A program made the position numbers and the translations under genes. Of a stretch of DNA of 64,000 bases, positions 1,561 through 14,144 are shown piece by piece. Below the pieces are notes generated by a model. That model had not been told where the DNA came from, made no database searches, and saw only the letters and a list, made by a program, of their open reading frames with translations. Every line of letters begins with the position of its first letter. The first letter of the stretch is position 1. This DNA comes from Nanobdellota archaeon (GTDB lineage Archaea; Nanobdellota; Nanobdellia; Woesearchaeales; GCA-2686295): NCBI GenBank assembly GCA_018817005.1, contig JAHIUF010000018.1:4964-68963 (forward strand). The letters are read 5' to 3'.

Positions 1561-4248
1561 CTACCAAACAAGGTATTTTAAAACAAATCTATTTTCTTTT
1601 CTAATAAAAATCTTTCTTAACTCATCTCCAAATAGTATTATTAAAGCAAAAGGCACAGATAATAATATTTCAAAAGCTGTTAATGGTTGAGTTCCAAAAA
1701 AAACATTACCTCCTGGAAGATAGACTACTATTGATAAAATTATTAATTCAATCATTATCCCAAGCAAAATAACTTTATTTTTACTAAATCCTGATTTAAA
1801 CACGGATTGTCTTCTTGTTCTACATATCCAAACATCTGCAATTTGACAAATTATTATGCTTGCAAAGAAAGCTGTAACTGCTTTTTGGTACAATGGATTA
1901 CTTAAAGCTAATTGCTGCCCCCATGTCCACCCACCATTAAATAGCACTACGAAATATGAGAAAAATCCTGCTATTGCTTGTAACATCCCGATTATTCCAT
2001 ACGACATAAAAAGAAGTTGTGGTGTAAGCAACCTTTCTTTTCTTGATCTTGGTTTATTTTTCATAACATCAATTTCTGGTTTTTCAATTCCTAGGCCAAT
2101 AGCAGGCAATATATCTGTACCTAAGTCAATAGCTAATATTAGTATTATACTGAGGGGTAAAGGAAGCCCTAATAAAACAAAGGCGATAAAAGGTAATATC
2201 TCTGGAATATTACTAGTTAAAATATATGCAATGAACTTTTTTATGTTTTCGAAAATAGTCCTTCCTTCTTCCACAGCATTAACGATGGTTGCAAAATTAT
2301 CATCCATCAACACCATGTCACTAGCTTCTCTAGCCACTTCTGTCCCGCTTAACCCCATAGCCACACCCATATCTGCATTTTTCAAAGCAGGAGCGTCATT
2401 AACACCATCACCCGTAACTGTAACTATTTCACCCATTGACTGTAAGGTTTTCACTATCTTGAGTTTTTGAATTGGATTTATTCTTGCAAAAATTATATTT
2501 TGTTTTTTTAGTTCTTCTTTAAGCTTTTTTTCACTCATTCTTTTTAATTCATCCCCGGTTATTATTGTTGCTTTTTCATGATCTACCAGACCAACTTTTC
2601 TTGCAATTGACTCTGCTGTAAGACTATAATCCCCAGTTATCATTATAACTTTTATGCCAGCAGTCTTACATTTTTTTATTGCATCAAAAACCTCTATTCT
2701 AGGGGGATCAAGCATTCCGACTAAGCCAAGAAAGATAAAGTTGTTTTCTTTCGCTTTTTCTGTTTTTGTCTCCTTATATGAGAATGCTAGAACTCTCTCA
2801 CCTCTTGAAGCAAGTTTCTCGTAATAATTAGATATTAATAGTTTATCCCTTTTTGATAAGCTCCTTATTTTATTTTCTACTAAGATTTTATTGCATTTAT
2901 TTATAATTATTTCAGGAGCCCCCTTCATATATGCAATCTTTTTACCAGCTGATTTATTTGTAGTGATCATCCTCTTCGTTTTACTATCGAAAGGAGATTC
3001 GTGGATTCTCTCCTCTTTCATAATTAGTTTTTCTATATCAATAAAATTCTGAGAGAAATTCATTAGTGAAGTCTCTGTAGGATCACCAGAATAGCTTTTA
3101 TCGTTAGTATTTAATTTTGAGTTATTACAAAGAACCATTGTTTTAATCAATAAATTTAACCCTTTAATATTATTTATACCTTTCTCAGAAGCGTTTGTTT
3201 CTTTAGAATTAACAAATAATGTATTAACTGTCATTTTATTCTGAGTTATTGTGCCTGTCTTGTCAGTGCATATCACTGTTGTAGAACCCAATGTTTCAAC
3301 AGATTCAAGATTTTTTATGAGTGCATTCTTCTTTGCCATTCTTTTTGAAGCAATACTTAAACATAAAGTGACTGTTGGCAATAAACCTTCTGGTACGTTT
3401 GCAACTATTATTCCTATTGCGAAGATAATACTTCTAATTAGTGTGTTTCCAATAAAAAAACTTGTGATGAAGAAAACTAAGCTGAGAATAATAGCAATAG
3501 TTGATATTACCTTAATGAAATGATTTAATTCTTTACGTAAAGGAGTTTCTGATCCTTCTGTTTCTTTTGTTAGTTTTACAATATCGCCGATTTGTGTATT
3601 TATACCTGTTCCGTAGACAAGAGCTTTTCCATTTCCTGACTGCACTAAAGTTCCGGAAAAAACCATATTTCTGGATTCTAAAATATTTTTGTGAGTGCAC
3701 TCTAATTTTCTTAGCTGAGGTTCTGATTCACCTGTTATAGATGAGTTATCAACTTTTAAGGAATTCTGTTCTATAAGTCTGGCATCAGCAGGAACTTTTT
3801 CTCCCTCATTAAGAAAGATTATATCTCCAGGCACTATTTCGTTTGCTTCAATTTCTTGTATTTTTCCATCTCTAATAACACTTGCTTTCTGCGGAAGCAT
3901 TTTCTTAAAAGACTCCATAATTTTTTCAGATTGGTATTCTTGAACAAATGTAAAGATTGCATTCAGCACAACAACGCCTGCTAGTGCTATTCCAATGTAA
4001 AGATTTCCCTCACCAGGCAAAATATATTCTGCAAAAAAAGCGATGAGAGATCCTGCTATCAACAATAAGGCAAAGAAATTTTTAAACTGTTTCAAAAATT
4101 TTAATACTGCAGGTATTTTCTTTTTTGTTTCAAGTATATTAAAACCATGTATTTTTAATCGTTCTTTTGCTTCTACGGAAGACAAGCCACTAAAGGAAGA
4201 TTTCACTTGCTGGTAAAGTTGTTCTAATGGAATTTTATGTTCATTCAT
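1561..4248 (-). CDS. P-type cation-transporting ATPase (P2-type, Ca2+/cation pump-like)
   Basis: 895 aa; phosphorylation motif ICTDKTGTITQN, hinge motif TGDGVNDAPALKNADMGVAMG, about 10 predicted TM segments. Confidence 0.85.
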   Translation of the reverse strand: MNEHKIPLEQLYQQVKSSFSGLSSVEAKERLKIHGFNILETKKKIPAVLKFLKQFKNFFALLLIAGSLIAFFAEYILPGEGNLYIGIALAGVVVLNAIFTFVQEYQSEKIMESFKKMLPQKASVIRDGKIQEIEANEIVPGDIIFLNEGEKVPADARLIEQNSLKVDNSSITGESEPQLRKLECTHKNILESRNMVFSGTLVQSGNGKALVYGTGINTQIGDIVKLTKETEGSETPLRKELNHFIKVISTIAIILSLVFFITSFFIGNTLIRSIIFAIGIIVANVPEGLLPTVTLCLSIASKRMAKKNALIKNLESVETLGSTTVICTDKTGTITQNKMTVNTLFVNSKETNASEKGINNIKGLNLLIKTMVLCNNSKLNTNDKSYSGDPTETSLMNFSQNFIDIEKLIMKEERIHESPFDSKTKRMITTNKSAGKKIAYMKGAPEIIINKCNKILVENKIRSLSKRDKLLISNYYEKLASRGERVLAFSYKETKTEKAKENNFIFLGLVGMLDPPRIEVFDAIKKCKTAGIKVIMITGDYSLTAESIARKVGLVDHEKATIITGDELKRMSEKKLKEELKKQNIIFARINPIQKLKIVKTLQSMGEIVTVTGDGVNDAPALKNADMGVAMGLSGTEVAREASDMVLMDDNFATIVNAVEEGRTIFENIKKFIAYILTSNIPEILPFIAFVLLGLPLPLSIILILAIDLGTDILPAIGLGIEKPEIDVMKNKPRSRKERLLTPQLLFMSYGIIGMLQAIAGFFSYFVVLFNGGWTWGQQLALSNPLYQKAVTAFFASIIICQIADVWICRTRRQSVFKSGFSKNKVILLGIMIELIILSIVVYLPGGNVFFGTQPLTAFEILLSVPFALIILFGDELRKIFIRKENRFVLKYLVW

Positions 4249-7677: not shown

Positions 7678-8415
7678 ATGAACTGCTTAGAAAATATTGG
7701 ATTATCAAAAGGAGAAATAAAAGTATATGAAGCAATATTAGACATTGGAACATCAACCATTAATAAAATTCAAGAAATAACTGTAATAGAAAGAAGAAAT
7801 ATCTATGACATTATAAACAAACTAATCCATAAAGGGCTCATATCATATACTGTTGAGAAGGGTAAAAAAACATATCGATGCACGCACCCAAATAAAATCT
7901 TATCTTATCTGGAAGAAAAGAAAAACAATATAGAAAAAGAAGAAGAAAATATAAGAAAAGAACTTCCAAAAATTATTGAAAAATTCAAACTATCAAAGCC
8001 AGCAATATCAGCACAAACATTTATAGGAAAAGAAGGAATAAAAGCAATTTTCGAAGAAATTCTAAACTACAAAAAAAGTTACTTTATAGGTGGTGGGTGG
8101 TATGTGATAAAAGAACTGCCTTATTTCTGGTCACACTATAATGAAAAAAGAATAGAAAAAAAAATAAAATGGTACAACCTCGTAAGATATGAATTAAGGA
8201 ATGAAAAACCCAAAAAAATAGATTTGATTGAAATAAAATATTTACCGAAAGAATTCTCAGGCAGCCCCCACGTAATATTTATTTTTGGAAACAAAATAGT
8301 CAATGTGATGTGGGGAAAAGAAATATTTGCATTCATGATAGAAAGCAAAGAAATTGCTGACAATTACAAGAAATATCATAATTATTTGTGGAAAAACATT
8401 GCAAAGGAAAAATAA
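7678..8415 (+). CDS. TrmB-family transcriptional regulator
   Basis: N-terminal wHTH LSKGEIKVYEAILDIGTSTINKIQEITVIERRNIYDIINKLIHKGLISY typical of TrmB N-domain; about 245 aa. Confidence 0.65.
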   Translation: MNCLENIGLSKGEIKVYEAILDIGTSTINKIQEITVIERRNIYDIINKLIHKGLISYTVEKGKKTYRCTHPNKILSYLEEKKNNIEKEEENIRKELPKIIEKFKLSKPAISAQTFIGKEGIKAIFEEILNYKKSYFIGGGWYVIKELPYFWSHYNEKRIEKKIKWYNLVRYELRNEKPKKIDLIEIKYLPKEFSGSPHVIFIFGNKIVNVMWGKEIFAFMIESKEIADNYKKYHNYLWKNIAKEK

Positions 8416-8504: not shown

Positions 8505-10682
8505 TTATAGTTTCTTCATCTTCAAAAGCAAAGAATTACTCACAACACTAACAGAACTCATTGCCATGGCAACTCCTGCAATCATAGGATTTAATAGCCA
8601 GCCCATAAAAGGATATAATAAGCCTGCAGCCACAGGAATTCCTAGACTATTATAAAATAAAGCCCAAAACATGTTTTGTTTTATTTTGTTCATCGTGATT
8701 TTGCTTAATTTTATAGTTTTGACCACATCCATGATATCATTTTTCATCAAAATCACATCTCCTGTTTCCATAGCCACATCAGTTCCTGAACCCATAACTA
8801 TTCCCACATCTGCTTGAGCTAATGCTGGTGCATCATTAATCCCATCACCAACCATTGCAACAAATCCTTTCTTTTGCAGTTTCTTCACATAATTTACTTT
8901 GTCTTCAGGCAATACTTCTGCAAAATAGTAATCTATTCCTGCTTGTTTTGCCATGAATTTGGCTGTTCGCTCATTATCTCCTGTAATCATATACACGCAT
9001 ATCTTTAATTTCTTTAATTGTTTAATTGCCTCAAATGAACTATCTTTTATGGTGTCTGCAACAGCCATTAGACCTATTAGTTTTTTTGATTCCGCAAGCA
9101 ACATCACAGTTTTTCCTTGCTCTTCAAACTCAATTATTTCAGACTTATACATATTAAAACTAATGTTGTTATCATTCATTAATTTTTGATTCCCAAAAAA
9201 ATATTTTTTATTTTCAATGCTTGCAGTTATTCCATGTCCCGGAATTGATTTGAAATCTTTCACTTTTTTAAGAATAACTTTTTTTTCTTTTGCTTTTTTT
9301 ACTATTGCTTCAGCCAGAGGGTGTTCACTATTACTCTCAAGCGATCCTGCTAACGAAAGAATAGAATATTTGTTTTGTTTTTTCAAAGGAATTATGTCAG
9401 TTATCTCTGGTTTGCCTTTGGTTATAGTTCCAGTTTTGTCAAAAATAATATTTTTTATTTTGTGAGTGGACTCTAATGCTTCTCCTCCTTTTATTAATAT
9501 CCCGTTCTTTGCTCCTTTTCCAGTGCCAACCATTATAGCAGTTGGTGTTGCGAGACCAAGTGCACAAGGACATGCAATTACTAATACAGCAACACTCGCC
9601 ATTAATGCAAATTGAAACTCAGAGCCTATTATAAAAAACCAAGAAATAAATGTACTAAGTGCTATGATTAAAACAATTGGAACAAAGTATGCTGAAACAT
9701 AATCAGCGAATCTTTGTATTGGTGCTTTGTTTCCCTGAGCATTTTCAATGAGCTTTATTATTTGATAAAGTGTTGTGTTAGCACCTACTTTTGTGGCCTT
9801 GAAAATAAAACTTCCATGTTTGTTAATAGTAGCACCAATAACTAAATCACCTTTATTTTTTTCAACAGGAATACTTTCTCCTGTAATCAAACTTTCATCA
9901 ATAGATGAATAACCTTCAATAATAATTCCATCTACAGGAATTTTTTCTCCTGGTTTAACTATGATATTATCTCTGATTAAAACATCATCAACACCTATTT
10001 TTATTTCAATTCCATCTCTTATTACTGTTGCTAATTTAGGTTTTAATCCGATTAGTTTTTTTATTGCTTCACCAGTTTTTCCTTTTGCTTTTGATTCCAA
10101 TAATCTTCCAAATAAAACAATGGTAATTAAAACAGCACTCGCTTCAAAATATACATGCCCATAACCACTAAAAATAACATATACACTATGAAAATAAGCA
10201 GCCGAGGTTCCTAAAATAATAAGAGTGTCCATGTTAGCACTCTTACTTCTTAAAGAATTCAGTGCACTCTTATACATTGGCCATGCAATAACAAATTGCA
10301 CTGGTGTTGCAAGAACCCACATCAAAATATCTTGATATAATATTGGGTTTTTCATAAAAAACATTCCAAGAATGAAAACGGGGACTGCAAAAAAAAGACT
10401 GAAAAAGAATGATTTCTTAAGTTTCAAATATTCTTTTTTTTGCTTATTTTCATAAACACCAAACTCGTTTTCACTAGCAATTATTGCATTATATCCTTTG
10501 CCTATTATTGTGTTAATGAAAACTGTTTTGTTAGTTCTGCTTTCATCGTATTCAATAGTTACTTTATTAGTTGCTAAATTAACATTTGTACTTTTCACAC
10601 CGTCTAGTTTATTGAGAGATTTATTAATGAGAGTTGAGCAACTAGCACAATGCATTCCTGAAATTTGAATAATTGTTTTCAT
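8505..10682 (-). CDS. copA: Copper-translocating P1B-type ATPase
   Basis: N-terminal HMA domain GMHCASCS, membrane CPC motif (ACPCALG), [29 protein letters not shown]; start set at MKTIIQ so the ATG overlaps the mnmA stop (ATGA). Confidence 0.85.
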
Positions 10683-11731
10683 TTGATAATTCCTCCGCCA
10701 AGACAAACATTTTTTCTGTAAAACACGCAAAATTGTCCGGGTGTAACGCTATCTTGAAATGTGTTAAAAATAATTTTATATCCTGATTTTAAAGGAACAA
10801 GTTCGGCTTTACTCAATTTCTGAGCATACCTTGTTTTTGCTCTTACATCAAGTGTTTTTCTTGGATGCTTATTCGAAATAAAATTTATATTTCTCAAATA
10901 CACTTCTTTAGACCTAACATCAAGTCTGTTTTTAGTAACAATTAAATCATTTTTCTTTTTTTCCTTAACAAAATAAGTTTCTGATAAACCCAAACCTTTT
11001 CTTTGACCAATTGTAAAAAAATGAACCCCTTTATGTTCTCCAAGCAACTTTCCATTAACATCAAATATGTTTCCATTATTAATTCCTATTTCTTTTTCTA
11101 AAAATTTAGGCAAAGATTTATTTGAAATAAAACAAAAATTCTGGCTTTCTTTTTTCTTAAGAAAAATCTTAAAACCTTCTTTTTCGGCAATTTCAAAAAC
11201 TTCGCTTTTTAATAAATCATTCAAAGGAAAAATAATTTTTTTTAATTGGCTCTGTTTAAGAAAAGAAAGACCATAAGTTTGATCTTTATTCTTATCTTTT
11301 GGTCTTACAAGTTTAAATTCTCCACAGTCACTCTTTATTTTTTTAGCATAATGTCCGCTTGCAACATATTTTACACCTATTTTCTTTGCGTATTCTAGTA
11401 ATTTTGAAAATTTATGAAATCTATTACAAATAACACAAGGATTAGGAGTCCTTCCTTTTTTGAGCTCAGAAATGAAATACTCAATCACTTCTTTCTTAAA
11501 CTCCTTTCTAACATCATATACGTAATAAGGCACATTTAATTTTTTACAAACAGCCTTTGCCAAGTTCAAAGATTCTTTAGTACAACAAGCATTTTCACAT
11601 AATTGGTTAAACTTACTTCTCCAAACAGGAAGCTTTAAAGAAACACCCACAGGTTCGTAACCTTTTTTCTTTAATAAGATTAATGATACTGAAGAATCAA
11701 CTCCTCCTGACATACCCACAACGACTTTCAT
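10679..11731 (-). CDS. mnmA: tRNA-specific 2-thiouridylase MnmA
   Basis: PP-loop [15 protein letters not shown], 350 aa, conserved catalytic Cys region (NPCVICN). Confidence 0.85.
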
Positions 11732-11794: not shown

Positions 11795-13291
11795 TTAACT
11801 ACCACAACCACAACTTCCACCTCTTGTAGCCTCACAAACAGGAGATCCACAACTTCCACCACATGAGCCTTTTGGTTGTTGTGGAACTTGATTAATCTCT
11901 TTTTGTACTGCTTCTTGGTCAGAAAGATTAACATCATTTATTACAATGAATGTTCCAGGAATCATTCCCATCCAACAACTCCATCTCACAACACCTTCTT
12001 CATCAGGTGTAAACTCAACTATTTGTTCTCCTGATTTAATATTAAACTCCAAACCATATTTTGGTACTTGAATTGCATTATTACAACCAGTTATTTCTTT
12101 ACCATTAATTATCCATCTTACAGGAACTCCTTTCTTTAATACAAATGTGTCAGGATTCCAACCATTTCTGTTTACTTCCATTCTAATCTCTTGAAAACCA
12201 TCACTAACCGCAAGCACGCTTCCAACTGCCATTTCTTTAGTTCCAGTTGCAGTTACAAATCCGGAGATTGAAGAAAAATCATATCCAGTACCTGTTAGGA
12301 CAAGACTGTTGTTAATCATCACTAAACCAAGAATTATAACTATGACTCCTGATGCCTTTAATATTTTTTGCGTAACTTTTCCAGATACAAAACTTGCAAA
12401 ATATCCAAAACCAAGCATTACAGGTAATGTTCCAAGACCAAAAACTAAAAGTAGTTTTGCTCCTCCAATCATACTTCCTGTTCCTGCAGCCATAATATAT
12501 ATTGCCTGCAAAGGTCCACAAGCAATCATCAATCCATTTAACAAGCCGATTGTTAAAGGACTGGAGTATTTTGAGTTTTTACCAACGAAGTTTGTGATAA
12601 ATTTTGGTGTTCTTAATTGAATTTTTCTTAAGATTGGAAATATATTTAGCATTTTAAGTCCGTATAATACAAGAAACAATCCTGCTAGAAATCCAATCAC
12701 GCCTCTAATTGTTGGTGTGAATGCAATAAATGATCCGAGCAATCCAAATATTGCTCCTATAATGGTATATGAAGTAGTTTTTCCAATCCCATACATGAGA
12801 TGAGATTTATGAGATTTTGTTCCTTCCTGAGCGTGTTTTGCAGCATAACTAATAACAAACCCTCCACACATACTAATACAATGAAATCCTGTTAGTAATC
12901 CAACAACAAATAATAACCCAAAACTCATATTCTGACTTATGCTTGGCAACTGGATTCCATCAACAAAATTAAATAAAAAATATCCTACAATTATTAGTCC
13001 TATAATTGCAGAAATCCATCCAAAAGTTTTGTTGGTATTTTGTTTTTGTTCATTAAGAATAGAACAAGTGTAATTTTTTTCCTCAATTTTTGATAATATT
13101 TCATCAATATCTGTTTTTTTCTTATCAAAAACAACATAACCTGTTTCAGTTGACAGATCAAATGATACTTTGTTTACTCCGTTAACTTTAAGTGCTTGTT
13201 TCTTTATAATTGTTGCACAACCATCACAAGTTGTGCCTTTTGCGATAAAACCTTTTTTTTCAATCATTTTAATAAACCTCATAACCTTCAT
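11795..13291 (-). CDS. Heavy-metal-associated membrane protein: HMA domain, DsbD_2-like transmembrane core, cupredoxin-like domain, Cys-rich C-terminal tail
   Basis: N-terminal CDGCA metal-binding motif, TM region with CISMCGG, C-terminal beta-domain with CNNA...CWMGMIPG, tail GSCGGSCGSPVCEATRGGSCGCGS. Confidence 0.55.
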   Translation of the reverse strand: MKVMRFIKMIEKKGFIAKGTTCDGCATIIKKQALKVNGVNKVSFDLSTETGYVVFDKKKTDIDEILSKIEEKNYTCSILNEQKQNTNKTFGWISAIIGLIIVGYFLFNFVDGIQLPSISQNMSFGLLFVVGLLTGFHCISMCGGFVISYAAKHAQEGTKSHKSHLMYGIGKTTSYTIIGAIFGLLGSFIAFTPTIRGVIGFLAGLFLVLYGLKMLNIFPILRKIQLRTPKFITNFVGKNSKYSSPLTIGLLNGLMIACGPLQAIYIMAAGTGSMIGGAKLLLVFGLGTLPVMLGFGYFASFVSGKVTQKILKASGVIVIILGLVMINNSLVLTGTGYDFSSISGFVTATGTKEMAVGSVLAVSDGFQEIRMEVNRNGWNPDTFVLKKGVPVRWIINGKEITGCNNAIQVPKYGLEFNIKSGEQIVEFTPDEEGVVRWSCWMGMIPGTFIVINDVNLSDQEAVQKEINQVPQQPKGSCGGSCGSPVCEATRGGSCGCGS

Positions 13292-13475
13292 TTTTGATAA
13301 TTAATTTCAATTGATTCTCACTTGTCCTTTTCTCATCAAAAAAAATTATTACTGTGCCTTTATTGTGAGAAACTTCAATATTTTTCACTCCTTCTTGTTC
13401 TTCTAATGTATCAATAATTAGCATCTCACAACTTTTGCAGTGCATTCCTTTAACCTGAATCGTGATTTTTTTCAT
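13269..13475 (-). CDS. Copper chaperone (CopZ-like HMA domain protein)
   Basis: 68 aa, MKKITIQVKGMHCKSCE (GMxCxxC). Confidence 0.7.
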   Translation of the reverse strand: MKKITIQVKGMHCKSCEMLIIDTLEEQEGVKNIEVSHNKGTVIIFFDEKRTSENQLKLIIKNEGYEVY

Positions 13476-13589: not shown

Positions 13590-14144
13590 TTAGAACTTCT
13601 TTATTAAGTATATCTCTTTTGTCTTTCCGGCAGGTTTTCTACTTATTATGCTTTTTTCTTCAAGTCCTTTTAGAATTAATGATAATGCTGTTTTTGAAAT
13701 ATTAGTCCTAAATCTTAATGTTGATTGTTTTATACCTTCTTGATCCTTTGTTGCTCTTAGCACTTTTTGTTCTTCTTCATTAAAACCTGCCAGATAAGCC
13801 TTAAATTCATCTTTTTCTCTTTCCTGTTTCTTTGCAGACTCCAAAGCACTTGATACTTTAATTTGATGTTCTGTTATCATTTTCTGTGTTTTATCAAAAA
13901 ATGTTAAGTAAACACCAAATAAGAACAATGCACCTGAAACAGCCCAACCAAAAACATACAATGGTAGGTCTTTTTTATGAAGACATGTTCCATCTTCCAA
14001 ATAACAAGTTCCTTCTTTAGCCATGTAGTCTTGTATAAACGCTTCATTATTGTTTTTTACCATGAAAATAAAACTACTCAGAAGAACTGATACTATTAGT
14101 AATATGATTCCAATATGCTTTTGATCCATGTTGTGTTCTTTCAA
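13590..14144 (-). CDS. Membrane-anchored winged-helix transcriptional regulator (putative metal sensor)
   Basis: Two TM helices bracket an extracytoplasmic CYLEDGTC Cys pair; C-terminal MarR/ArsR-like wHTH (ISKTALSLILKGLEEKSIISRKPAGKTKEIYL). Confidence 0.4.
   Translation of the reverse strand: MKEHNMDQKHIGIILLIVSVLLSSFIFMVKNNNEAFIQDYMAKEGTCYLEDGTCLHKKDLPLYVFGWAVSGALFLFGVYLTFFDKTQKMITEHQIKVSSALESAKKQEREKDEFKAYLAGFNEEEQKVLRATKDQEGIKQSTLRFRTNISKTALSLILKGLEEKSIISRKPAGKTKEIYLIKKF

What the first reader, a model, noticed from the sequence alone, without database searches (positions are those of the whole stretch)
11795..13291. Unusual domain fusion: HMA, DsbD_2-like TM core, cupredoxin-like domain and poly-Cys tail
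The combination of a cytoplasmic metal-binding HMA domain, a thiol-disulfide-transporter-like membrane core with an intramembrane CxxxC, an extracytoplasmic cupredoxin-like beta domain (C...CWMGM) and a GSCGGSCG...GSCGCGS tail suggests a copper-handling or reductase shuttle. I cannot assign it to a characterised family.
Basis: partly seen in the sequence, partly recalled or inferred. Interest (0 to 1): 0.5.

Follow-up and report, generated by a model that had tools for sequence, protein, structure and literature searches.

The report
Three-part copper-handling membrane protein
This gene in a tiny (DPANN) archaeon's copper-export operon encodes an uncharacterised but very widespread membrane protein that puts one copper-binding domain inside the cell, a second (of a type so far studied only in Streptococcus) outside, and a cysteine-lined membrane core between them, so it probably passes copper or reducing power across the membrane.

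Summary
Window 11795..13291 (-) is a real gene; the likely start is M9 at 13267, giving 490 aa. It encodes HMA, an adaptor helix (TM0), a 6-TM DsbD_2 core, a beta domain and a Cys-rich tail.

Positive-inside statistics give 7 TM, N-in and C-out: HMA is cytoplasmic, the CupA-like domain and tail are outside.

The gene lies in regulator-copZ-target-mnmA-copA. That target-CopA synteny holds in 39 of 53 archaeal loci.

The family is large: at least 561 species genomes and 926 clusters at E<=1e-30. It covers DPANN archaea, methanotrophs, Bacillota and Actinomycetota. In the distant forms examined (Actinomycetota, Deinococcota, Chloroflexota) HMA is a separate gene immediately downstream.

No characterised member was found. 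The database name "sulfite exporter TauE/SafE" is unsupported.

Best reading: a Cu(I) thiolate relay across the membrane working with CopA (confidence 0.45). Main rival: a DsbD-like reductant conduit serving the outside CupA-type Cys pair (0.3). I rate it a new variant of known kinds, of moderate interest.

The parts
11795..13267 (-). Gene for the HMA-TM0-DsbD_2-CupA-like-Cys-tail protein (490 aa from Met9; the longest ORF reaches 13291)
   Evidence: ORF. Start: 490-aa database model, GAGGT upstream, 1 nt after the copZ stop. More than 2400 homologs.
13070..13246 (-). Cytoplasmic HMA domain (residues 16-74 of the 498-aa ORF) with metal-binding TCDGC (Cys22, Cys25)
12962..13027 (-). TM0 (residues 89-110): adaptor helix joining the cytoplasmic HMA to the outward-facing N-terminus of the 6-TM core
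   Evidence: Hydropathy and positive-inside counts. Absent in the split actinobacterial and Deinococcus forms, which have no fused HMA.
12323..12913 (-). 6-TM DsbD_2 membrane core (residues 127-323)
   Evidence: Pfam PF13386 E 1e-46, 159.9 bits. Relatives also reach PF02683 DsbD_TM.
12866..12883 (-). Intramembrane His137-Cys138-x3-Cys142 on core TM1
   Evidence: Cys138 98%, His137 93%, Cys142 93% conserved. Only Cys138 is kept in the distant split forms.
12512..12520 (-). Intramembrane Cys258-Gly-Pro on core TM4, at a break in the helix
   Evidence: 100% conserved. In the model, TM4 is interrupted exactly here. The Cys aligns with the PCIGP cysteine of a CcdA in a weak hhalign match.
11942..12226 (-). 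Extracytoplasmic CupA-type cupredoxin-like domain (residues 356-450). Predicted ligands are Cys403, Cys439, Met441 and Met443, equivalent to CupA Cys74, Cys111, Met113 and Met115.
11798..11869 (-). Disordered Cys/Gly-rich C-terminal tail (residues 475-498; Cys477, 481, 486, 494, 496)
   Evidence: Sequence. pLDDT below 50. Every one of 121 close homologs has 2-5 Cys and a ...GCGCGG end. Replaced by LysM or nothing in aerobic bacteria.
13269..13475 (-). copZ: stand-alone HMA metallochaperone directly upstream
   Evidence: Pfam HMA E 4e-13; NCBIfam CopZ-type hits.
13590..14144 (-). Putative operon regulator: two TM helices flanking a Cys-containing outer loop, then a winged-helix (MarR/DUF7343-like) domain
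   Evidence: Pfam. A homolog (cluster c1) lies upstream of the target in 36 of 53 archaeal loci.
10679..11731 (-). mnmA (tRNA 2-thiouridylase) inserted between the target and copA
   Evidence: Pfam tRNA_Me_trans E 9e-69. Its stop overlaps the copA Met17 start as ATGA (coordinates).
8505..10682 (-). copA: Cu(I)-type P1B ATPase with an N-terminal HMA domain, CPC, YN and MSS motifs
   Evidence: Pfam E1-E2_ATPase, Hydrolase and HMA. Motifs are visible in the translation.

Best explanation
The protein is a copper(I)-handling component of a cop operon. I propose it works as a thiolate 'bucket brigade' across the membrane.

Proposed path:
1. Cu(I) is held on the cytoplasmic HMA domain, loaded directly or from CopZ.
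2. It passes to the intramembrane cysteines of the DsbD_2 core: Cys138 and Cys142 on TM1, and Cys258 at the break in TM4.
3. It then moves to the extracytoplasmic CupA-type binuclear site. This has a high-affinity bis-thiolate site (Cys403/Cys439) and a lower-affinity site (Cys403/Met441/Met443).
4. In anaerobic lineages it ends on the Cys-rich tail or an external sink.

I favour outward flux, making this an ATP-independent partner of the CopA pump.

Shown here:
- The domain identities.
- Conservation of every proposed ligand.
- The predicted topology, with the two metal domains on opposite sides.
- Operon linkage to CopZ, CopA and a regulator.
- An HMA partner that is fused in some lineages and encoded by the adjacent gene in others.

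Inferred:
- That the substrate is Cu(I).
- That the core moves metal rather than electrons.
- The direction of flux.
For: 1. Metal sites on both sides.
- HMA with CxxC.
- A CupA homolog with all four Cu(I) ligands. The residue equivalence follows from the alignment and the CupA numbering given in PMC5646241 and PMC7558416.

2. Topology.
- K+R counts in successive loops are 17/0/3/0/6/0/3/1 for this protein.
- The family means over 126 proteins are 5.4/0.5/2.9/0.1/6.3/0.05/3.0/1.6.
- This gives 7 TM, N-in and C-out.
- Alphaproteobacterial members carry a C-terminal LysM domain.
- Forms without a fused HMA and starting directly at core TM1 also lack TM0. That fits TM0 being a topological adaptor.

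3. Rosetta-stone evidence for an HMA hand-off.
- In Deinococcus, Tsukamurella, Mycolicibacterium and Chlorohelix, a 6-TM core + C...CxMxM protein is followed immediately by a stand-alone HMA gene. In Streptomyces the gene immediately downstream is a 90-aa 'cation transporter', with an HMA-domain gene two genes further on.
- These sit in metal-resistance islands with P1B-ATPase, MerR-type regulator, MerA, MerB or MCO genes.
- Canonical CcdA and TlpA are encoded separately in the Tsukamurella and Streptomyces islands, and TlpA in the Mycolicibacterium one.

4. Synteny.
- CopA lies within three genes downstream on the same strand in 39 of 53 archaeal loci.
- The regulator lies upstream in 36 of 53.

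5. Intramembrane His + three Cys is more than a disulfide relay needs, and would suit a trigonal Cu(I) site (inference from the sequence).

6. From established knowledge:
- HMA domains are otherwise fused to metal transporters or metal enzymes.
- MerP-MerT-NmerA is a precedent for a Cys-to-Cys metal relay.
- The LysE superfamily, which includes DsbD, is rich in heavy-metal exporters (PMC4608589).
Against: - No member has been tested, and nothing here shows metal binding or transport.
- The only residues universal across the whole family are two TM cysteines (one in TM1, one in TM4) plus a Cys pair in the outside domain. That is exactly the DsbD beta-to-gamma layout for electron transfer.
- No conserved acidic residue in the TM helices suggests proton coupling. 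An outward flux would therefore need an external sink.
- A second Cu(I) exporter beside CopA looks redundant.
- Some relatives sit next to merA or merB, where import would be expected.
- The TM region of the model is only moderately confident (pLDDT 60-80).
Confidence: 0.45

Rival explanations
1. DsbD/CcdA-like reductant conduit. The membrane core carries reducing equivalents, not metal, from the cytoplasm to its own extracytoplasmic CupA-type domain. This would keep Cys403/Cys439 and the tail reduced so they can capture Cu(I) released by CopA. Alternatively it would recycle them after they reduce Cu(II) to Cu(I), making the protein a transmembrane cupric reductase or copper trap analogous to ScsB-ScsC.
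For: - The core is a DsbD_2 family member, and relatives also match DsbD_TM/CcdA.
- The universal residues are one Cys in TM1 and one in TM4, the latter at a helix break and aligned with the CcdA PCIGP cysteine.
- The core has the same orientation as DsbD, followed by an outside domain carrying a Cys pair.
- CupA's Cys74/Cys111 reduce Cu(II) in vitro, and the source that re-reduces them is stated to be unknown (PMC5646241).
- Thioredoxin-like or DsbA-like exported proteins sit next to the gene in about 10 archaeal loci.
- DsbD-family genes are among the most induced under copper limitation in an ammonia-oxidising archaeon (PMC7785015).
Against: - A reductant conduit gives no role to the HMA partner, which is fused or encoded by the adjacent gene across phyla.
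- Separate canonical CcdA and TlpA genes exist in the Tsukamurella and Streptomyces islands.
- The extra His137 and Cys142 in TM1 are not needed for disulfide exchange.
- Most DPANN hosts live in anoxic settings, where Cu(II) reduction is unnecessary.
- The profile comparison with a true CcdA is weak (E 0.08).
Confidence: 0.3
2. Same thiolate relay but running inward, like MerP-MerT-NmerA or CopC/CopD. The outside CupA-type domain captures Cu(I), or Hg(II) in some lineages, and passes it through the membrane cysteines to the cytoplasmic HMA/CopZ. The purpose would be controlled delivery, either to CopA, to MerA, or to cuproenzyme supply in methanotrophs.
For: - Relatives lie next to merA (Tsukamurella) and merB (Deinococcus).
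- The family is conspicuous in copper-hungry methanotrophs.
- There is no conserved acidic TM residue for proton antiport.
- From established knowledge, importers do occur in resistance operons (Mer, CopCD).
Against: - In DPANN archaea the gene is co-oriented with the exporter CopA and with CopZ, so uptake followed by export would be a futile cycle.
- A Cys-rich tail outside looks more like a sink than a donor.
- NCBIfam MerTP scores only 36.6 bits against a cut-off of 180, and only over the HMA part.
Confidence: 0.15
3. The database annotation is right: it is a TauE/SafE-type sulfite or organosulfonate exporter that happens to carry extra domains.
For: NCBI and JGI names for this protein and its relatives. 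A true TauE gene and sulfide-related genes lie near the Methylocystis homologs.
Against: - Pfam TauE is not matched even at E 0.1, and no NCBIfam TauE model matches.
- The core is DsbD_2.
- Both flanking domains are metal-binding, and the operon is a cop operon.
Confidence: 0.02

Closest known systems
CupA, the membrane-anchored Cu(I) chaperone of Streptococcus pneumoniae (PDB 4F2E/2MRY), and the cupredoxin-type N-terminal domain of pneumococcal CopA (4F2F)
   Same: [quoted passage not shown]
- Like cupA, the gene lies beside copA in a copper-regulated operon.
   Different: - CupA is a 123-residue protein with one N-terminal anchor helix, and is described as working on the cytoplasmic side. 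It hands Cu(I) to a cupredoxin-type CopA domain.
- Here the domain follows seven TM helices and is predicted to be outside the cell.
- Here CopA has an ordinary HMA domain, and a separate CopZ is present.
- Reviews describe CupA as confined to a few streptococci (PMC7558416, PMC5646241). This family spans archaea and several bacterial phyla.
DsbD / CcdA / ScsB transmembrane thiol-disulfide (electron) transporters
   Same: - A 6-TM 3+3 core of the same Pfam clan.
- One conserved Cys in TM1 and one in TM4.
- The same membrane orientation.
- A C-terminal extracytoplasmic domain with a Cys pair, as in DsbD gamma.
- ScsB/ScsC link this kind of system to copper tolerance.
   Different: - The best match is DsbD_2 (PF13386), not DsbD_TM.
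- TM1 carries His-Cys-x3-Cys rather than PCxxP.
- The outside domain is a copper site, not a thioredoxin fold.
- A cytoplasmic HMA domain is attached or encoded alongside, which no DsbD has.
- Electron transfer is untested.
Mer mercury relay (periplasmic MerP HMA, MerT membrane Cys pair, NmerA HMA) and MerTP fusions
   Same: The logic of soft-metal hand-off between Cys pairs on both sides of the membrane through intramembrane cysteines. The HMA domain is fused to the membrane protein.
   Different: - No homology between the core and MerT: NCBIfam MerTP matches only over HMA, far below its cut-off.
- Here HMA is inside and a CupA-type domain is outside.
- The context is mainly copA/copZ rather than merA.
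LysE-superfamily heavy-metal carriers (CadD, RcnA/NicO, MntP)
   Same: Distantly related 6-TM cores that export metal ions (PMC4608589).
   Different: Those use His, Asp or Glu ligands and proton coupling. This core has only Cys/His and no conserved acidic TM residue.

Membership tests
CupA-type cupredoxin-like Cu(I) domain (Pfam Cupredoxin_1, PF13473) | Significant sequence similarity to CupA | tested here: met
   phmmer versus PDB: residues 356-450 against 2mry/4f2e, E 1e-14; against 4f2f, E 4e-6.
CupA-type cupredoxin-like Cu(I) domain (Pfam Cupredoxin_1, PF13473) | Eight-stranded cupredoxin-like beta fold | tested here: met
   [not shown]
CupA-type cupredoxin-like Cu(I) domain (Pfam Cupredoxin_1, PF13473) | [quoted passage not shown] | tested here: met
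   Cys403, Cys439, Met441 and Met443 align with CupA Cys74, Cys111, Met113 and Met115. They are 97-99% conserved in 126 representatives and kept in distant actinobacterial and Deinococcus forms.
CupA-type cupredoxin-like Cu(I) domain (Pfam Cupredoxin_1, PF13473) | Pfam gathering score for PF13473 | tested here: not met
   18.5 bits against a cut-off of 27 for the window protein. A Bacillota relative reaches 38.7 bits.
CupA-type cupredoxin-like Cu(I) domain (Pfam Cupredoxin_1, PF13473) | CupA protein organisation: single N-terminal anchor, cytoplasm-side action, partner CopA with a cupredoxin-type MBD | tested here: not met
   The domain is C-terminal to 7 TM helices and predicted outside. CopA in the window has an HMA domain.
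CupA-type cupredoxin-like Cu(I) domain (Pfam Cupredoxin_1, PF13473) | Binds two Cu(I) per domain | not testable with these tools
   Needs purified protein.
DsbD_2 (PF13386) within the DsbD/CcdA clan | Pfam model above the gathering score | tested here: met
   159.9 bits against 24.9, covering model positions 2-198 of 199.
DsbD_2 (PF13386) within the DsbD/CcdA clan | Six-TM core with one conserved Cys in TM1 and one in TM4 | tested here: met
   Hydropathy. Cys138 98% and Cys258 100% conserved, and also kept in split forms.
DsbD_2 (PF13386) within the DsbD/CcdA clan | Direct similarity to bona fide CcdA/DsbD_TM (PF02683) | tested here: inconclusive
   The window protein does not hit PF02683 at E<=0.1. 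Many close homologs and two bacterial relatives do, at 28.5 and 30.7 bits against 27.1. hhalign against a Tsukamurella CcdA gives E 0.079, with only the TM4 Cys aligned.
DsbD_2 (PF13386) within the DsbD/CcdA clan | Transmembrane thiol-disulfide electron transfer | not testable with these tools
   Needs thiol-trapping and redox assays.
HMA (PF00403) metallochaperone-type domain | Ferredoxin-like fold with a CxxC metal site, Pfam above cut-off | tested here: met
   [not shown]
TauE/SafE sulfite exporter (the name carried in NCBI and JGI) | Match to TauE/SafE family models | tested here: not met
   No TauE hit in Pfam at E<=0.1, and none in NCBIfam.
MerT / MerTP mercuric transport proteins | Match to the MerT membrane part above the curated cut-off | tested here: not met
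   NCBIfam MerTP_fusion scores 36.6 bits against a cut-off of 180, and the match covers only the HMA part.

The most novel reading that the evidence does not exclude
This would be the first example of a self-contained copper conduit that needs no ATP. A cytoplasmic HMA site, an intramembrane Cys/His site in a DsbD-type fold and an extracytoplasmic CupA-type binuclear site would be strung along one polypeptide. It would work either as a Cu(I) bucket brigade or as a transmembrane cupric reductase in which the DsbD-like core is the long-sought reductant source for the CupA cysteine pair. It would be the standard partner of CopA in hundreds of DPANN archaeal species and would also be used by methanotrophs.
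Probability: 0.4. Interest if true: 0.7.

Novelty: new variant of a known kind. Interest (0 to 1): 0.55.

Why it matters
- CupA is treated in the literature as a streptococcal peculiarity acting on the cytoplasmic side. Here the same copper site is predicted outside the cell and welded to a DsbD-type membrane core. It is conserved across archaea and at least six bacterial phyla (about 930 clusters at 50% identity at E<=1e-30).
- If the core moves Cu(I), this is a new class of copper transporter built on an electron-carrier fold.
- If the core moves electrons, it supplies the missing reductant for CupA-type cupric reduction. It would also show how cells keep copper-binding thiols reduced outside the cytoplasm.
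- Either way it would correct a widespread misannotation ('sulfite exporter TauE/SafE').
- Cultured, genetically tractable hosts exist for testing: Methylotuvimicrobium buryatense 5G, Methylocystis, Streptomyces and Acetoanaerobium.
- It also bears on how genome-reduced DPANN archaea and copper-dependent methanotrophs manage copper.

Tried and rejected
- **Fold search, AFDB50:** the library was not available, so no annotated full-length structural neighbours were obtained.
- **Profile comparison with a genuine CcdA:** too weak to settle homology of the Cys positions (E 0.079).
- **Model geometry:** coordinates are not exposed, so I could not check whether Cys138, Cys142 and Cys258 cluster.
- **Literature:** searches for DsbD_2, PF13386/PF13473, TauE + copper, methanotroph + DsbD and Woesearchaeota + copper found no characterised member of this architecture. 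One paper (PMC4720546) was not held.
- **Rejected, TauE/SafE sulfite exporter:** no model match.
- **Rejected, MerT/MerTP:** only the HMA part matches.
- **Rejected, blue-copper electron carrier:** the ligand set is the Cys/Met Cu(I) set of CupA, not His2-Cys-Met.
- **Rejected, gene-fusion artefact or frameshift:** hundreds of full-length homologs share the architecture.
- **LysM tail as proof of an outside C-terminus:** confirmed by Pfam. I treat it as supportive only, because from my own knowledge some LysM proteins (E. coli Kbp/YgaU) are cytoplasmic.
Full report
**1. The observation**

The minus strand carries an ORF at exactly 11795..13291 (498 aa). Pfam finds three domains:

| Domain | Residues | E-value | Bits | Cut-off |
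|---|---|---|---|---|
| HMA | 16-74 | 6e-10 | 39.8 | 24.8 |
| DsbD_2 (PF13386) | 127-323 | 1e-46 | 159.9 | 24.9 |
| Cupredoxin_1 | 364-450 | 0.002 | 18.5 | 27 (not reached) |

- NCBIfam matches only the HMA part, with CopZ/MerP-type models far below their cut-offs. Neither library reports TauE, MerT or CcdA.
- The true start is probably Met9 at 13267. It lies 1 nt after the copZ stop and has GAGGT 8 nt upstream. It also matches the 490-aa database model, which is 100% identical.

**2. The beta domain is CupA-like**

- A sequence search of all PDB chains gives the S. pneumoniae Cu(I) chaperone CupA (2mry/4f2e) as best hit: E 1e-14 over residues 356-450. The cupredoxin-type N-terminal domain of pneumococcal CopA (4f2f) follows at E 4e-6.
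- Counting along that alignment, Cys403, Cys439, Met441 and Met443 fall on CupA Cys74, Cys111, Met113 and Met115. These form the bis-thiolate S1 site and the Cys/Met2 S2 site of the binuclear Cu(I) centre (PMC7558416, PMC5646241).
- An AlphaFold2 model built on 93 homologs has mean pLDDT 70. The HMA and beta domains reach about 85, the TM region 60-80, and the linker and tail fall below 50.

**3. Topology**

- Hydropathy gives seven helices: TM0 (89-110) plus six in the DsbD_2 core.
- K+R counts in successive loops are 17/0/3/0/6/0/3/1 for this protein. The means over 126 diverse relatives are 5.4/0.5/2.9/0.1/6.3/0.05/3.0/1.6.
- This is a clean positive-inside pattern for N-in, C-out. HMA is cytoplasmic, and the CupA-like domain and tail are outside.
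- Two independent observations agree. Alphaproteobacterial members end in a LysM domain (31.1 and 27.8 bits against a cut-off of 20.9). Distant members with no fused HMA that begin directly at core TM1 have no TM0, so TM0 looks like a topological adaptor.
- The core then has the same orientation as DsbD/CcdA, by my own knowledge of those families.

**4. Conservation**

Figures come from 126 representatives at 31-69% identity, in 498-aa numbering.

| Residue | Location | Conserved |
|---|---|---|
| Cys258 | core TM4 | 100% |
| Cys138 | core TM1 | 98% |
| Cys403, Cys439 | CupA-like domain | 99% each |
| Met441, Met443 | CupA-like domain | 98%, 97% |
| His137, Cys142 | core TM1 | 93% each |
| Cys22, Cys25 | HMA CxxC | 87% each |

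- The tail cysteines are present in about half of these representatives.
- Among 121 close relatives, every tail has 2-5 Cys and typically ends ...GCGCGG.
- In the model, TM4 is broken exactly at Ala-Cys258-Gly-Pro.

**5. Family size and spread**

- The word-indexed search found more than 2400 relatives. The top 120 are 54-100% identical and almost all come from DPANN archaea. They are named 'sulfite exporter TauE/SafE family protein', 'heavy metal transporter' or left unnamed.
- The exhaustive search of 50%-identity representatives found 8397 clusters at E<=1e-3 and 926 at E<=1e-30. Of the best 150, 101 carry HMA CxxC + HCxxxCG + CxMxM. Most of the rest are fragments or HMA-less forms, and 31 have two or three CxMxM domains.
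- A scan of species-representative genomes found at least 561 genomes with a relative. Of the best 80 loci, 53 are archaeal: Woese-, Nano-, Micr-, Iain-, Undin- and Altiarchaeota, Nanohaloarchaea and Methanoperedens.
- The other 27 are bacterial, mostly aerobic methanotrophs (Methylocystis, Methylobacter, Methylotuvimicrobium buryatense 5G, Methylomonas, Methylococcaceae). There is also a deltaproteobacterium, a CPR bacterium and a Bacillota member.
- Bacterial variants may lack HMA but keep TM0. They replace the Cys tail with LysM or an unrelated tail.

**6. Context**

- In the window the order on the minus strand is: a 2-TM + winged-helix protein (13590-14144), copZ (13269-13475), the target, mnmA (10679-11731), then copA (8505-10682).
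- copA has HMA, CPC, YN and MSS motifs. mnmA and copA overlap as ATGA.
- Across the 53 archaeal loci, CopA lies within three genes downstream on the same strand in 39. The regulator-like protein lies upstream in 36, and a separate CopZ within two genes in 13.
- Occasional extra neighbours are an FtrD-like Cys-rich lipoprotein (PF10080), exported thioredoxin- or DsbA-like proteins, and a small Met/Gly-rich membrane protein.
- In Methylococcaceae a CopA is adjacent or divergent. In Methylocystis the gene follows an FNR-type regulator, an SQR-like flavoprotein and cydAB.

**7. Distant cultured relatives**

- tblastn against plasmids found a full three-domain homolog in Acetoanaerobium (35% identity). 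It also found shorter forms in Deinococcus, Tsukamurella, Streptomyces, Mycolicibacterium and Chlorohelix.
- The Deinococcus and Tsukamurella forms, which I translated, are a 6-TM core with one Cys in TM1 (SCxAVQGG) and one in TM4 (IPCG), plus a C...C[SG]MGM domain.
- In four of the five short-form records a stand-alone HMA gene lies immediately downstream. In Streptomyces a 90-aa 'cation transporter' gene follows instead, with an HMA-domain gene two genes further on.
- These sit within islands holding P1B-ATPases, MerR-type regulators and MerA, MerB, MCO or YHS genes. Separate CcdA and TlpA genes occur in the Tsukamurella and Streptomyces islands, and a TlpA gene in the Mycolicibacterium one.

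**8. Mechanism**

The persistent HMA partner, fused in some lineages and encoded alongside in others, argues that a metallochaperone docks on the cytoplasmic face. I therefore favour a soft-metal thiolate relay as the best explanation.

- The path would run HMA, then intramembrane Cys, then the CupA-type site, then the tail or an outside sink.
- The direction is probably outward, alongside CopA. Confidence is 0.45.

The strongest rival (0.3) is that the core works like DsbD/CcdA and feeds electrons to the outside Cys pair.

- The family-wide invariants (one Cys in TM1, one in TM4, a Cys pair outside) mirror DsbD.
- CupA's cysteines reduce Cu(II), and their re-reduction source is stated to be unknown (PMC5646241).
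- DsbD-family genes respond to copper status in another archaeon (PMC7785015).

An inward, Mer-like relay (0.15) is suggested by merA/merB neighbours and the methanotroph distribution. The annotated sulfite-exporter function is rejected. None of these readings can be settled without experiments.

**9. Comparison and novelty**

- The parts are known: HMA, a DsbD-clan core and the CupA domain. The protein is already deposited in public databases.
- I found no paper describing or testing this architecture.
- Reviews state that CupA occurs only in a few streptococci and acts with a cupredoxin-type CopA domain (PMC7558416, PMC5646241). A survey of PF13473 proteins in Rhizobiales found none with the four-residue motif (PMC5552934).
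- This family keeps the motif, places the domain outside the cell, and couples it to a Cys-lined membrane core. I therefore class it as a new variant of known kinds, not categorically new.

**10. Verdict**

Interest is 0.55. The finding is a large, mis-annotated and experimentally accessible family, with two concrete and mutually exclusive mechanisms to test.

Noticed in passing
window 13590-14144 (-): The first gene of the cluster encodes two TM helices flanking a short outer loop with two Cys and a His (EGTCYLEDGTCLH), followed by a cytoplasmic winged-helix domain (MarR/DUF7343-like). Homologs lie upstream of the target in 36 of 53 archaeal loci. It may be a membrane-bound one-component regulator that senses copper or redox state outside the cell. 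It is unlike the TRASH-domain CopR/CopT regulators known in archaea.
   Followed up: partly
window 10679-11731 (-), and loci L010, L012, L028, L077 among others: mnmA (tRNA 2-thiouridylase) is embedded between the target and copA, its stop overlapping the copA start as ATGA. A different PP-loop tRNA-thiolation-type gene (cluster c3) lies in the locus fetched around the target gene (up to 6 kb either side) in 7 of the 80 loci. The reason for this link between tRNA thiolation genes and copper export is unexplained.
   Followed up: partly
loci L004, L006, L007, L011, L013, L025, L027, L037, L038, L052 (cluster c2): A roughly 160-aa lipoprotein-like protein with a Cys-rich FtrD-like domain (PF10080, E 5e-25) sits within three genes of the target (mostly between it and copA) in 12 of the 80 loci (11 archaeal, 1 bacterial); the c2 cluster has members in 13 loci. 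It is not present in this window. In Ftr iron-uptake systems this domain accompanies a cupredoxin, so it could be a redox partner.
   Followed up: no
L036, L040, L042, L044, L046, L053 (Methylocystis and related Alphaproteobacteria): Here the homolog follows an FNR-type regulator, an SQR-like flavoprotein and cytochrome bd oxidase genes (cydAB). It lies near an MBL-fold (persulfide-dioxygenase-like) gene and a true TauE-like gene. The protein ends in a LysM domain instead of a Cys tail. This points to a link with sulfide or low-oxygen stress rather than a classic cop operon.
   Followed up: partly
P0048, P0053, P0066, P0104; L080 (Bacillota); About one fifth of the representatives (31 of 150) carry two or three tandem CxMxM domains, and some carry two HMA domains. 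The extracytoplasmic copper-binding capacity is therefore modular.
   Followed up: no
L003, L041, L043, L067, L073 (cluster c11): A roughly 75-aa protein with a signal-like start, a Gly/Met-rich stretch (GFGGMGGMMSG) and one TM helix lies between the target and copA in five archaeal loci. It may be another small copper-binding accessory.
   Followed up: no
L083, L084, L085 (Tsukamurella, Streptomyces, Mycolicibacterium plasmids): The actinobacterial metal-resistance islands that hold the split form (core + CupA-like protein with a separate HMA gene nearby) also encode TlpA with or without canonical CcdA, glutaredoxin and peroxiredoxin. Extracytoplasmic thiol-redox and soft-metal resistance genes therefore travel together.
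   Followed up: no
window 1561-4248 (-) and 7678-8415 (+): A second P-type ATPase of the P2 type (Cation_ATPase_N and Cation_ATPase_C domains) and a TrmB-family regulator lie just beyond copA. Both look ordinary, and there is no evident link to the cop cluster.
   Followed up: no
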